Shown piece by piece: positions 48,001 through 51,000 of a stretch of DNA of 64,000 bases. Numbering within the stretch: the first letter of the stretch is position 1; each line of letters begins with the position of its first letter. The position numbers are program-made. The stretch lies in assembly GCF_041248615.1 (NCBI RefSeq), contig NZ_CP158426.1; one strand, given 5' to 3'. Source of the stretch: Escherichia coli. Lineage in GTDB: Bacteria; Pseudomonadota; Gammaproteobacteria; Enterobacterales; Enterobacteriaceae.

Positions 48001-51000
48001 TCCGCGTCAGTCAGCGCATTGGCCCGCATGTTCTGGTACAGGTTGGTAACCAGCCAGTAGTGCGCGTTCGATTTCCACGGATAAGACTCTGCATCCGGAT
48101 ACAGGCCTCGCTTCCGGCAATACTCGTAAACCATATCAACCAGCTCGCTGACGTTTGGCAGTCCGGCGATAACGGATGCTTCTTCCCGGCACCATGCAAC
48201 AAACTGCCCGGGTGATGGCAGAAATGGTCGATTCTGCCGACGGGCTACGCGCATTCCTGCGTTAACCTGTTCCATTGTGGTGATCCCGTTTTCCCGGAAA
48301 GCCAGAACCCACTGGCGGCGGATTTCGTTCAGTTCGTTCTGGTCACGGTTAGCCAGACTCGCCGGGAAAGTTGCCAGTAACTGGCTGAACACACCGTTGA
48401 TGATCTGCGCTACCTGCTGTACCTGCGGCTTTTCGTCGTACTGTTCCGGCATGTTGTTGGCGATCCGACGCATCTGCTCACGGTCAAAATTAACCATCTG
48501 TGCGGCGATGTTTTTCATAAATCCACCCCGTAAATCCAGTCAGTGTTTGTCAGGTCGAGTTTTGGTTTGCAGGCTGTCACACCTGCCTGTTGCTTGTTAC
48601 GGTTGATTTCGAGCTGGGTCCACTTGTCGCGGAGTTTGGCCGGGCTCAGCACGTTACCGGACCAGAAGTTGTCCTGGCATGCCCAGCGGAACAGTACACA
48701 CATGTCGCGATGGTTACGTCCGTCACGTTCACGCATCAGGCGGATATCGTTAGCCCACCCTGCAAAATTCGGTTTTCTGGCTGATGGCGCGATGGTCTTC
48801 ACCATGTCAAACATCCATTCTGCGGCGGTCAGGTCTTCTGCTGTCCCCCACTTGCTGCCGCTCTGAATTGCAGCATCCGGTTTCACCACAGAAAGGTCGT
48901 TTTCTGGCTGGTCAGAGGATTCGCCAGAATTCTCTGACGAATAATCTTTTCTTTTTTCTTTTGTAATAGTGTCTTTTGTGTCCCCCTGTTTTGAGGGATA
49001 GCAATCCCCCAATTTGAGGGATGTTTTATCCCTCGTTTTAGGGGATTTTCCCTCGTTTTGAGGGATACACCATTCTGAGATGTTTTTATTTGGTCCAAAC
49101 ATGCCGCCTTGCTGCTTGATAATATTCATTCTGACGAGTTCTAACTTGGCTTCATTGCACCGTTTGACGGGTAACTTTGTAATCTCGCTAAGTTGAGAAT
49201 CGGTGATTCTGTCCATTGGTTTATTCCATCCATAGGTTTTACGCAGAATGGCAAGCAGCACTTTAAACTGTCGCTTGGTCAGATCTGCGCCTGAATAAGC
49301 CTCAAGCAGCATATTTGATAGTCTGGCGTAACCATCATCGAGATCTGCCACATTACGCTCCTGTTTGGCAAAGTTACCTCTGCAGAAGTTGAGTATTTTT
49401 GCTGTATTTGTCATAATGACTCCTGTGGATTGATCCAGTAATGACCTCAGAATTCCATCTGGATTTGTTCAGAACGCTCGGTTGCCGCCGGGCGTTTTTT
49501 ATTGGTGAGTCCATCAAGCGCATACTTAAAAGCCCTGCTAATCGGACTGATGTCTGATGCCATTCCGAAAGCACACAAGACCGAAGCAATAAATCTCCAG
49601 TCCGTTCTGCTTATCTTCGATTCATGACAGCCAATCATCTTTGCCAGACCGCGCTGGGTAATAGCTGACAGATTGATAAGTAAATCTGTTTCTGCGCGAT
49701 CAACGTCACGCTGTGATAGTTTGCTGTAACTTGTTCTTTCCATTTCTTAAGATTTCCAATAGTGAATAGTTAGTTGAAAGGTATGCGTGGAAACGCATAT
49801 GGCCTTAGTTGGTCAGATATCTTGGAACTCGCTTTTCAGCGACGTAGGACGAATGTCCGTTGTTACAAAGAGCGGATCCGCTTATTAAGCGGCTTTGTGT
49901 TCCGGCGGGAACACGTCATCAAGACTGACTTTTGCGCCTAACTTGTTTAGGCACGCAACAAGAGCACGGCATGTTTTAAGGTCTGGGAAGCGACGACCAG
50001 ATTCCCAATGTCCGATAGCTCCCTGTGTGCATCCAACTGCCTTAGCAAGTGTTGTTTGAGAGATATTCAGTGACTCTCGATATTTTCGTAGGTTGCTCAT
50101 ATGCCCTCCATAGTAAACACGAATAAAAAAATACAATATGTACTTTGCGAATACAAGTAAAAATACACATTGTGCATGGATGGTTCCAGTACAGAGCGTA
50201 ATAATAAGGACATGAAAATGAAATGGTATGAACTGGCTAGATCCAGAATGAAAGAGCTCGGCATAACTCAAGAGAAGTTAGCCGAAGAGCTAGGTATGAC
50301 GCAGGGTGGGATTGGACACTGGTTGCGCGGATCTCGTCATCCATCTCTTAGTGATATTGGTGTGGTGTTTAAATACCTTGGTATTGATAACATATCATTC
50401 AACCACGACGGGACATTTTCACCTGTTGGCGAATACTCATCGGCCCCAGTTAAAAAACAATATGAGTACCCTGTTTTTTCTCATGTTCAGGCTGGGATGT
50501 TCTCTCCAGAACTCAGAACCTTTACCAAAGGCGATGCGGAGAGATTGGTAAGCACAACCAAAAAAGCCAGTGACTCTGCATTCTGGCTTGAGGTTGAAGG
50601 TAACTCAATGACCGCACCAACAGGTTCCAAACCCAGCTTTCCTGACGGGATGTTAATTCTGGTTGACCCTGAGCAAGCTGTTGAGCCCGGCGATTTCTGC
50701 ATAGCCAGACTTGGTGGTGATGAATTTACCTTCAAGAAACTGATCAGGGATAGCGGTCAGGTGTTTCTACAGCCACTAAACCCACAATACCCAATGATCC
50801 CATGCAATGAGAGTTGTTCCGTTGTGGGGAAAGTTATCGCCAGCCAATGGCCTGAAGAGACGTTTGGGTGATGAAACCACTTTTATCTACAATTTACAGG
50901 GCGGTAAACATTGGCAAAAATAGATGATTATCAGCCAAGCCAAGTAGAAGTTGATAAAGTACTTTATTGTAAAAAAATAGTTAACTTTTCTGGCGTTAAA

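What the first reader, a model, noticed from the sequence alone, without database searches (positions are those of the whole stretch)
49828..49874. Candidate nutR: boxA plus GAAA-loop boxB hairpin between cro and cII
On the minus strand cgctctttg (boxA-like) is followed ~23 nt later by hairpin tcgct-gaaa-agcga. The same arrangement occurs upstream of N, which supports both calls even though spacing differs from lambda.
Basis: seen in the sequence. Interest (0 to 1): 0.3.

Follow-up and report, generated by a model that had tools for sequence, protein, structure and literature searches.

The report
Prophage nutR antitermination site, known type
This is the ordinary rightward N-utilisation (nutR) RNA signal of a common lambda-like E. 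coli prophage, already annotated in the Shiga-toxin phage VT2-Sakai; its only unusual feature is a four-base rather than five-base loop on the hairpin that the phage N protein binds.

Summary

**What is there.** On the minus strand, 10 nt after the cro stop codon:
- boxA CGCTCTTTG (49874..49866)
- a 23-nt spacer
- boxB hairpin TCGCT-GAAA-AGCGA (49842..49829)

A matching site, nutL (52510..52555, + strand), lies between pL and an intact N gene (52654..52926).

The long spacer holds its own hairpin (GGAC-ATTC-GTCC). This is the arrangement of the experimentally studied H-19B/933W nut sites.

**Evidence.**
- The combined boxA-to-boxB pattern occurs twice in the window; none is expected by chance.
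- VT2-Sakai (AP000422) annotates the homologous positions as putative nutR and nutL.
- Across 19 distinct nut sites from relatives, both hairpins pair in every case, and 6 of 9 pairs show compensatory changes.
- Loop type tracks the arginine-rich motif (ARM) of N without exception. This N type goes with GNRA tetraloops (88/88 nutL, 79/79 nutR). H-19B-type N goes with GACAA pentaloops (75/75, 77/77).
- One natural pair of phages swaps only the ARM and the boxB loop plus its closing pair.

**Verdict.** The element occurs in about 19% of complete E. coli genomes. It is already known and of low interest. The true-tetraloop boxB specificity class is a modest side point.

The parts
49866..49874 (-). 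nutR boxA, CGCUCUUUG (8 of 9 to the CGCUCUUUA consensus)
   Evidence: lies within the annotated nutR of VT2-Sakai
49859..49865 (-). Single-stranded spacer segment UAACAAC. ACAA(C/U) is conserved in all related nut sites.
49847..49858 (-). Spacer hairpin GGAC-AUUC-GUCC, corresponding to the spacer dyad symmetry ('reducer') of H-19B nut sites
   Evidence: predicted; helix 1: 3 of 4 pairs with compensatory changes, 100% paired; PMC3526286 notes two hairpins in H-19B nutR
49843..49846 (-). Invariant UACG linker between the two hairpins
   Evidence: invariant columns 37-40 in 19 distinct sites
49829..49842 (-). nutR boxB hairpin UCGCU-GAAA-AGCGA: 5-bp stem, U-A closing pair, GNRA tetraloop. Predicted binding site of the N arginine-rich motif.
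   Evidence: helix 2: 3 of 5 pairs compensatory; loop co-varies with N ARM
49782..49799 (-). Hairpin UAUGCGU-UUCC-ACGCAUA in the tR1 region. The first 18 nt of the 26-nt feature that VT2-Sakai annotates as 'putative rho dependent terminator for pR transcript'; that feature extends to about 49774.
   Evidence: nearly identical in H-19B, whose nutR/tR1 is a tested Rho-dependent terminator
49885..50100 (-). cro (71 aa, HTH_3), first gene of the pR transcript that carries nutR
49447..49743 (-). cII (98 aa), first gene downstream of nutR/tR1
52510..52518 (+). nutL boxA-like GGCUCUUUA
   Evidence: within the annotated nutL of VT2-Sakai
52525..52537 (+). nutL spacer hairpin GUCGA-CUC-UCGAC
52542..52555 (+). 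nutL boxB hairpin UGGCU-GAAA-AGCCA. Has a C-G to G-C compensatory change relative to nutR.
52654..52926 (+). N antiterminator gene (90 aa). ARM is GTAASRRRARRANLQSQEA; the C-terminus CLPNVALYAAGYRKSKQLTAR is shared with H-19B N.

Best explanation
This is nutR, the rightward N-utilisation site of a lambdoid prophage of the VT2-Sakai / ev017 type.

Proposed mechanism:
1. RNA polymerase starting at pR transcribes cro and then this element.
2. In the nascent RNA, boxA (CGCUCUUUG) is the predicted NusB-S10 binding site.
3. A small spacer hairpin (GGAC-AUUC-GUCC) pulls boxA and boxB closer. The 23-nt spacer then presents only about 11 unpaired nucleotides.
4. The boxB hairpin (UCGCU-GAAA-AGCGA) is bound by the N-terminal arginine-rich motif of the phage's own N protein, which is encoded 99 nt downstream of the twin site nutL.
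5. N, with NusA and the other Nus factors, stays tethered to the polymerase by the RNA loop and makes it resistant to termination. It reads through the Rho-dependent tR1 that overlaps and follows nutR, into cII-O-P and onward.
6. Without N, Rho loads on this same RNA region and stops transcription before cII.

Shown here: sequence anatomy, position, the duplicate at nutL, conservation, compensatory base changes in both hairpins, and strict co-variation of the boxB loop with the N ARM.

Inferred from homologues (H-19B, lambda): N binding, Nus factor involvement, the role of Rho/tR1, and the distance-reducing role of the spacer hairpin.
For: - Position: 10 nt after the cro stop and 85 nt before the cII start, on the pR transcript strand.
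- Twin site between pL and N.
- The combined pattern gives 2 hits against 0 expected.
- Homologous positions are annotated as putative nutR and nutL in VT2-Sakai, with the motifs and spacer hairpin identical. nutR is also annotated in 933W and mEp234.
- The H-19B homologue is used experimentally as an N-responsive nutR/tR1. It has two hairpins, N/NusA protect the spacer and boxB, and Rho footprints on the spacer (PMC3526286). PMC1950744 describes the same region as a Rho-dependent terminator.
- Covariation on 19 distinct sites: 100% of cells paired, 6 of 9 pairs changed on both sides, score 0.645 against 0.148 when shuffled and at most 0.095 when slid.
- One U-G pair (L094 nutR) is compatible only with pairing on the transcript strand.
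- ARM and loop co-vary. Window-type ARM goes with GAAA or GCAA at 88/88 nutL and 79/79 nutR. H-19B-type ARM goes with GACAA at 75/75 and 77/77.
- The window-type class includes divergent Cronobacter (N 70% identical) and Pantoea-type (N 53% identical) relatives.
- Natural swap between L088 and L093: their N proteins differ essentially only in the ARM (76% identity). Their nut scaffolds are identical through the spacer hairpin and boxB stem; the only differences within the nut elements are the loop and the closing pair, at both nutL and nutR.
- Identical regions occur in isolated phages ev017, ev207 and PhiR57_1.
Against: - No experiment exists for this tetraloop subtype. All functional data come from H-19B, which has a GACAA pentaloop and a different ARM, and from lambda.
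- Folding energy is not distinctive: z = -0.94 and -1.28.
- For the window's own nutL and nutR, an alternative pairing of boxA with the 3' half of boxB is predicted to be slightly more stable at equilibrium. The values are -14.1 vs -12.0 and -12.3 vs -11.7 kcal/mol, and the boxB pair probability is 0.02 for nutL.
- A true tetraloop lacks the protruding fourth base. In lambda that base is reported to foster NusA binding (Legault 1998 as cited in PMC3597692).
- The many loci in the co-variation tables are largely near-identical. They represent only about 6 versus 4 independent lineages.
- The site finder required perfect stems, so the 100% pairing figure is partly by construction.
Confidence: 0.9

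Rival explanations
1. The region is primarily the Rho loading (rut) site of tR1. The hairpins merely organise flanking single-stranded RNA for Rho, with no specific N recognition.
For: In H-19B, Rho footprints on the nutR spacer, and nutR/tR1 behaves as a Rho-dependent terminator (PMC3526286, PMC1950744). VT2-Sakai annotates a putative Rho-dependent terminator about 30 nt downstream.
Against: The same architecture occurs at nutL. According to PMC3526286, nutL has no overlapping Rho-dependent terminator. The boxB loop co-varies perfectly with the N ARM at both sites. Rho binding would not impose that, and it would not explain the L088/L093 swap. The two roles are not exclusive: overlap of nut and rut is the known arrangement.
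Confidence: 0.05
2. An RNA switch. boxA pairs with the loop and 3' arm of boxB, enclosing the spacer hairpin. This masks both elements until a factor (NusB/S10 or N) opens them.
For: This alternative fold is the predicted MFE for the window's nutL (-14.1 vs -12.0 kcal/mol) and marginally for nutR (-12.3 vs -11.7). The first base of boxA (C in nutR, G in nutL) matches the complementary base in the boxB 3' arm of the same site.
Against: The fold is not conserved. Relatives whose nutL boxA starts with A, U or C break the pairing, yet they keep the site. In 13 of the 18 related sites scored correctly, the MFE contains both local hairpins. L089 nutR was mis-scored by the script, though its MFE also shows both. 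H-19B and L091 nutL lack boxA altogether. Co-transcriptional folding favours the local hairpins.
Confidence: 0.03
3. A chance inverted repeat, an intrinsic terminator for cro, or a DNA-level protein-binding site.
For: Short 5-bp hairpins and boxA-like 9-mers are individually common. A third boxA-like CGCTCTTTA lies inside the endolysin gene at 42418..42426.
Against: The combined motif is expected 0 times by chance but occurs at exactly the two expected positions. No U-run follows boxB (AGCGAGUUCCAAG), and the terminator scan does not call it. Compensatory changes and a strand-specific U-G pair point to RNA structure. The element is conserved in Cronobacter and Pantoea-type relatives.
Confidence: 0.02

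Closest known systems
nutR / nutL of Stx phage VT2-Sakai (AP000422; 'putative N-utilization rightward/leftward')
   Same: boxA, spacer hairpin, UACG linker and boxB are identical. Within the aligned 91 nt, nutR differs at 2 flanking bases only. The N type (90 aa), the position between cro and cII, and the position between pL and N are all the same.
   Different: Nothing of substance. The window prophage is a non-identical relative: about 95% identity across cro-cII, and 100% to phages ev017, ev207 and PhiR57_1.
nutR / nutL of H-19B and 933W (experimentally characterised N-nut system; Neely & Friedman 1998 and 2000, Sen laboratory)
   Same: The architecture matches: boxA, ACAA(C/U), spacer hairpin, UACG, 5-bp boxB. 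The nutR spacer hairpin and boxB stem are identical (GGAC-ATTC-GTCC; TCGCT/AGCGA). The downstream tR1 region is nearly identical. The N proteins share the C-terminal polymerase-binding end.
   Different: - The boxB loop is GACAA (5 nt) there and GAAA (4 nt) here.
- boxA is CGCTATTTT there and closer to consensus here (CGCTCTTTG).
- H-19B nutL has no boxA, whereas this nutL does.
- The N ARM differs (RSRRRERLKAKALANG vs ASRRRARRANLQSQ), and N is 127 aa there vs 90 aa here.
- From memory of Neely & Friedman 2000 (paper not held): H-19B N does not need boxA, NusB or S10. Whether that holds here is unknown.
Phage lambda nutR / nutL with lambda N
   Same: The logic is the same: boxA, spacer, then a 5-bp boxB with a U-A closing pair and a G-A-A-rich GNRA-type loop. 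The N ARM here is lambda-like, with 9 of 18 positions identical when aligned by eye on the RRR motif: AQTRRRERRAEKQAQWKA vs AASRRRARRANLQSQEAI. One natural hybrid combines lambda cro-nutR-cII with this N and nutL (L029).
   Different: - The lambda spacer is 8-9 nt with no hairpin.
- Lambda loops are pentaloops (GAAAA, GAAGA) whose fourth base protrudes (PMC3597692, bioRxiv 10.1101/2025.04.11.648485). Here the loop is a true tetraloop.
- Trp18 of lambda N is Glu here.
- The rest of N is unrelated in sequence to lambda N. No PDB sequence hit was found.
P22 nut sites / P22 N (gp24)
   Same: Pfam N_peptide matches both this N and H-19B N. P22-type members of that family share the C-terminus CLPNVALYAAGYRKSKQLTAR. 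From memory, the P22 boxB loop GACAA is the same as that of H-19B.
   Different: The ARM differs (GNAKTRRHERRRKLAIER). The loop is a pentaloop. No P22 nut site was fetched or compared here, so its spacer could not be assessed.

Membership tests
Lambdoid N-utilisation (nut) site | Lies in the early transcript, downstream of pR (or pL) and upstream of the first terminator and the delayed-early genes | tested here: met
   nutR lies between the cro stop (49885) and cII (49743). nutL lies between the pL-homologous region and N. Positions match the annotated pR, pL and nut features of VT2-Sakai.
Lambdoid N-utilisation (nut) site | boxA element resembling CGCUCUU(U)A, 5' of boxB | tested here: met
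   CGCTCTTTG (nutR) and GGCTCTTTA (nutL), each 8 of 9 to the consensus. boxA alone is not statistically distinctive (3 found, 2.07 expected).
Lambdoid N-utilisation (nut) site | boxB: a short hairpin with a purine-rich GNRA-type loop, supported as RNA structure | tested here: met
   5-bp stem with GAAA loop. 3 of 5 stem pairs show compensatory changes and 100% are paired across 19 distinct sites. The loop is 4 nt, not the 5 nt of lambda, P22 and H-19B.
Lambdoid N-utilisation (nut) site | Cognate N gene with an arginine-rich motif in the same phage, and the same boxB loop at both nutL and nutR | tested here: met
   N at 52654..52926, PF25694 E=1.5e-32. Both sites have GAAA. ARM and loop co-vary across loci.
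Lambdoid N-utilisation (nut) site | N- and Nus-dependent antitermination activity | not testable with these tools
   Experimental data exist only for the H-19B homologue (PMC3526286, PMC1950744).
H-19B/933W-type nut site (spacer-hairpin subtype) | Dyad symmetry (hairpin) within an extended boxA-boxB spacer | tested here: met
   GGAC-AUUC-GUCC (nutR) and GUCGA-CUC-UCGAC (nutL). 3 of 4 core pairs are compensatory. The UACG linker is invariant.
H-19B/933W-type nut site (spacer-hairpin subtype) | boxB pentaloop GACAA | tested here: not met
   The loop here is GAAA at both sites. H-19B, 933W and mEp234 have GACAA.
H-19B/933W-type nut site (spacer-hairpin subtype) | Cognate N with the H-19B ARM (12-RSRRRER-18 followed by LKAKALANG) | tested here: not met
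   The window ARM is SRRRARRANLQSQ. It is therefore a sister subtype (VT2-Sakai type) rather than an H-19B-type member.

The most novel reading that the evidence does not exclude
The VT2-Sakai/ev017-type N and its nut sites may form a distinct natural N-boxB specificity class. In it, boxB is a true GNRA tetraloop (GAAA or GCAA) rather than a GNRA-like pentaloop. The cognate ARM is lambda-like but lacks the Trp that stacks on the loop.

If so, the N-boxB complex has no protruding loop base to present to NusA. It must then engage NusA differently, for example through the conserved spacer hairpin and UACG linker.

A single inserted or deleted C in the loop (GAAA vs GACAA), plus an ARM swap, would switch specificity between this class and the H-19B class. 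The class may also cross-react with lambda boxB, as the natural lambda-nutR hybrid L029 hints.

I could not establish whether this has been described. Nothing turned up in the searchable library.
Probability: 0.45. Interest if true: 0.35.

Novelty: already known. Interest (0 to 1): 0.15.

Why it matters
As found, it matters little. It confirms that the window holds an intact early-regulation module (pL-nutL-N and pR-cro-nutR-tR1-cII) of a very common E. coli prophage type. That is useful for annotation, because nut sites are rarely annotated in genome records.

The side observation has modest value for RNA-protein recognition. Nature appears to provide matched pairs of arginine-rich peptides and boxB hairpins that differ by one loop nucleotide on otherwise identical scaffolds. 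Such pairs could serve as orthogonal tethering tags alongside lambda N-boxB. They could also test whether the protruding pentaloop base is really needed for NusA recruitment.

Tried and rejected
- **Rfam.** An E-value scan of 47000..55000 found no nut or boxB family. It gave only sub-threshold chance hits, for example Trp_leader at 49804..49900 on the opposite strand, 18 bits against a gathering score of 41.
- **Folding energy.** z-scores for nutR were not significant. I therefore did not use thermodynamics as evidence.
- **PDB.** A sequence search with N found nothing. The lambda ARM comparison was done by eye on the sequences.
- **Primary papers.** Neely & Friedman 2000 and Legault 1998 are not held. 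Statements about the 'reducer' hairpin and about boxA/NusB/S10 independence of H-19B N rest on my memory of the first paper. The statement about the protruding base and NusA is cited second-hand from PMC3597692.
- **Literature on this subtype.** Searches for a description of the tetraloop subtype or the VT2-Sakai nut sites found nothing relevant.
- **Alternative boxA:boxB pairing.** Considered because it is the predicted MFE in the window. Rejected as a conserved feature because relatives break it.
- **Third boxA-like site.** The site at 42418..42426 lies inside the endolysin ORF and has no hairpin downstream, so it is chance.
- **Failed script.** My first nutR tally used a faulty context filter and found almost nothing. 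It was redone correctly.
- **Loci without nutR.** L070 and L073 carry this N, but no nutR, boxA or cII was found within the upstream DNA held, up to 5 kb. They are probably rearranged or defective prophages. Not pursued.
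Full report
**1. What is in the sequence**

The minus strand of 49500..50300 reads, in order:
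- the end of cro (ORF 49885..50100; HTH_3);
- ten bases later, CGCTCTTTG (49874..49866);
- TAACAAC (49865..49859);
- a small hairpin GGAC-ATTC-GTCC (49858..49847);
- TACG (49846..49843);
- the hairpin TCGCT-GAAA-AGCGA (49842..49829);
- a further hairpin TATGCGT-TTCC-ACGCATA (49799..49782);
- cII (49743..49447; Phage_CII E=7e-34).

The claimed twin upstream of N is also real:
- GGCTCTTTA at 52510..52518;
- AACAAC;
- GTCGA-CTC-TCGAC at 52525..52537;
- TACG;
- TGGCT-GAAA-AGCCA at 52542..52555.

This twin lies 99 nt upstream of a 90-aa ORF (52654..52926). That ORF matches Pfam N_peptide (PF25694) at E=1.5e-32.

**2. Is it more than chance?**

- boxA on its own is not significant. SGCTCTTTR occurs 3 times against 2.07 expected, and the third copy lies inside the endolysin gene.
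- The combined pattern GCTCTTTR-N15-30-GCTGAAAAGC occurs exactly twice, at the two positions where nut sites should be. It occurred in none of 100 shuffles.
- Folding energies are unremarkable: z = -0.94 and -1.28 for nutR. I do not rely on them.

**3. Context and relatives**

The cro-cII and nutL-N segments are 100% identical to isolated Escherichia phages ev017, ev207 and PhiR57_1. They are about 95% identical to Stx phages of the VT2-Sakai group.

The VT2-Sakai record AP000422 annotates several features at the homologous positions:
- 'putative N-utilization rightward' and 'putative N-utilization leftward';
- a 'putative rho dependent terminator for pR transcript' over the downstream hairpin;
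- pR, pL and the operators.

Alignment shows that boxA, the spacer hairpin, the linker and boxB are identical between the window and VT2-Sakai.

933W (NC_000924) and mEp234 (EF120460) annotate nutR at the same place.

A 111-nt query around nutR matches 1008 of 5426 complete E. coli genomes. These include Nissle 1917 and the type strain. The element is therefore common and already annotated in public records.

**4. The spacer hairpin**

The 'spacing differs from lambda' puzzle is resolved by the hairpin inside the spacer. H-19B and 933W nutR read CGCTATTTT-CACAAT-GGAC-ATTC-GTCC-TACG-TCGCT-GACAA-AGCGA.

PMC3526286 describes two hairpins in H-19B nutR. N with NusA/NusG protects the spacer and boxB, and Rho alone footprints on the spacer. 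The same nutR/tR1 was used as an N-responsive, Rho-dependent terminator in vivo and in vitro.

From my memory of Neely & Friedman 2000 (not held), this spacer stem-loop was called the 'reducer'. It was proposed to bring boxA and boxB into proximity. Here, closing the hairpin leaves 7 + 4 unpaired spacer nucleotides, comparable to lambda's 8-9 (locus L029).

**5. Covariation**

I collected nut sites from:
- 80 IMG/VR loci carrying this N;
- 80 loci carrying H-19B-type N;
- contigs encoding divergent N relatives, including a Cronobacter prophage (N 70% identical) and a Pantoea-type metagenomic contig (N 53% identical).

Nineteen distinct sites were aligned (A3). The results:
- For the two-hairpin structure, 100% of 171 cells are standard pairs.
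- 6 of 9 pairs change on both sides.
- The spacer stems are GGAC/GTCC, GTCGA/TCGAC, GGTGA/TCACC and GATTC(A/G)/TGAATC.
- The boxB stems are TCGCT/AGCGA, TGGCT/AGCCA, AGGCT/AGCCT, GCGCT/AGCGC, T(C/G)GCC/GGC(G/C)A.
- The covariation score is 0.645, against 0.148 when shuffled (0 of 500 shuffles reach it) and at most 0.095 when the partners are slid.

Caveat: my site finder demanded perfect stems. The raw intergenic sequences nevertheless show the site at every expected position in both ARM classes. The one exception is the Salmonella nutL in L094/L095, where boxB is imperfect (GCTC-CGTCAAC-GAGC).

One U-G pair (L094 nutR) fits RNA pairing on the transcript strand, not DNA pairing.

**6. The link between boxB and N**

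The N family is mosaic. It has a shared C-terminus, CLPNVALYAAGYRKSKQLTAR, and several alternative N-terminal arginine-rich motifs.

| ARM class | Sites scored | boxB loop found |
|---|---|---|
| Window-type (RRRxRRA) | nutL | GAAA at 88/88 |
| Window-type (RRRxRRA) | nutR | GAAA or GCAA at 79/79 |
| H-19B-type (RRRERLK) | nutL | GACAA at 75/75 (8 further loci gave no perfect site) |
| H-19B-type (RRRERLK) | nutR | GACAA at 77/77 |

 Many of these loci are near-identical, so the independent evidence amounts to roughly six versus four lineages. There are no mixed combinations, even though nutR lies on the far side of the immunity region from N.

The most telling case is L088 versus L093:
- The N proteins are 76% identical and differ essentially only in the ARM.
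- The nut scaffolds are identical through the spacer hairpin and boxB stem.
- Within the nut elements, the only differences are the loop and its closing pair: TGGCT-GAAA-AGCCA vs TGGCC-GACAA-GGCCA at nutL, and TCGCT-GAAA-AGCGA vs TCGCC-GACAA-GGCGA at nutR.

This is a natural swap experiment. It identifies the hairpin loop as the partner of the ARM.

**7. Mechanism (inferred by homology)**

1. Transcription from pR produces nutR RNA.
2. N's ARM binds boxB.
3. NusA binds N and the spacer.
4. boxA recruits NusB-S10.
5. The tethered complex renders polymerase resistant to Rho at tR1 and to later terminators, allowing expression of cII-O-P and onward.
6. Without N, Rho loads on the overlapping rut region.

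None of these steps has been tested for this subtype.

**8. How it differs from the characterised systems**

The loop is a true GNRA tetraloop. Lambda (GAAAA, GAAGA), P22 and H-19B (GACAA) have pentaloops. Pentaloops adopt a GNRA-like fold by extruding one base. In lambda the protruding fourth base is reported to foster NusA binding (Legault 1998, as cited in PMC3597692; see also bioRxiv 10.1101/2025.04.11.648485).

The features that lambda N needs most are present: loop G1, a purine at position 3 and the U-A closing pair.

The ARM is lambda-like (AASRRRARRANLQSQEAI vs AQTRRRERRAEKQAQWKA), but it has Glu where lambda has Trp18.

One IMG/VR contig (L029) combines lambda cro-nutR-cII with this nutL and N. 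This hints at cross-recognition but proves nothing.

**9. Rivals**

- **A pure rut role.** This does not explain the nutL twin or the ARM-loop co-variation.
- **An intrinsic terminator.** Excluded because no U-run follows the hairpin.
- **An alternative boxA:boxB-3' pairing.** It is the predicted MFE for the window's own sites, but relatives do not conserve it.
- **Rfam.** It holds no family for nut sites, and the scan gave only chance hits.

**10. Verdict**

This is an already known kind of element, annotated as putative nutR and nutL in VT2-Sakai and homologous to the experimentally studied H-19B nutR. Interest is low. The tetraloop/ARM specificity class is a modest side result worth a sentence, not a discovery claim.

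Noticed in passing
window 49471..49498 (+ strand): A strong intrinsic-terminator-like hairpin (12 pairs followed by a T-run) lies antisense to the 3' end of cII. This is the position of the oop antisense RNA terminator in lambdoid phages.
   Followed up: no
window 52221..52242 (+ strand): An intrinsic-terminator-like hairpin AACCCGGC-CTCAGC-GCCGGGTT followed by a T-run, just upstream of pL. Its position upstream of pL corresponds to VT2-Sakai's 'putative rho independent terminator for pRM transcript'. It ends the cI-side operon before the pL/nutL/N region.
   Followed up: partly
window 49782..49799 (- strand): A 7-bp hairpin UAUGCGU-UUCC-ACGCAUA followed by ACCUUUCAAC, between nutR and cII. 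It is nearly identical in H-19B and 933W. VT2-Sakai annotates it as a putative Rho-dependent terminator (tR1).
   Followed up: partly
window 52508..52558 (+) and 49826..49876 (-): The predicted MFE pairs boxA (NGCU.CUUU) with the loop and 3' arm of boxB (GAAA.AGCN), enclosing the spacer hairpin. The values are -14.1 vs -12.0 kcal/mol for nutL and -12.3 vs -11.7 for nutR. The first base of boxA matches the boxB stem variant at each site in the window, but relatives break this.
   Followed up: partly
L029 (IMGVR_UViG_2531839234_000006), N at 3877-4146, lambda nutR near 1086: A natural hybrid: lambda cro, lambda nutR (CGCTCTTAC-ACATTCCA-GCCCT-GAAAA-AGGGC) and lambda cII, combined with the window-type nutL (GAAA tetraloop) and window-type N. 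This suggests either cross-recognition of lambda boxB by this N or a defective prophage.
   Followed up: partly
L096 and L097, N at 5001-5273, nut regions printed: A further ARM type (DDNARNRRRARRQAQREQA) on the same N body. It goes with a different boxB-like hairpin, TTCCCGC-CGAAAT-GCGGGAA, preceded by GCTCTTTAACA and lacking the spacer hairpin/UACG module. L096 nutL lacks a recognisable site.
   Followed up: no
L094 / L095 (Salmonella prophages), 100-150 nt upstream of N: The nutL of these H-19B-type N phages has an imperfect boxB (GCTC-CGTCAAC-GAGC, or a C-C mismatch closing GTCAA). Their nutR keeps TCGCT-GACAA-GGCGA with a U-G closing pair.
   Followed up: no
window 42418..42426 (- strand): A perfect boxA consensus CGCTCTTTA lies inside the endolysin ORF (42228..42725, codons for RGALYS). 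No boxB-like hairpin follows, so it is almost certainly chance.
   Followed up: yes
window 52582..52926 (+ strand): The N reading frame is open upstream to an ATG at 52582 (114 aa). Some public gene calls are longer still, at 140-143 aa (P0002-P0004). The likely true start is the ATG at 52654, which follows GGGAGGA. The lambda RefSeq record carries a similarly over-extended N CDS.
   Followed up: partly
window 49878..49892: A small hairpin CCGCTT-AAT-AAGCGG spans the cro stop codon, immediately 5' of boxA on the transcript. In the 76-nt fold, an overlapping stem GCGG/CCGC sequesters the first bases of boxA. It is present in VT2-Sakai-type sequences but not in H-19B/933W-type sequences.
   Followed up: no
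L070 and L073 (IMG/VR loci with this N): No nutR, boxA-like motif or cII could be found in the DNA held upstream of N (up to 5 kb). These prophages are probably rearranged or truncated.
   Followed up: partly
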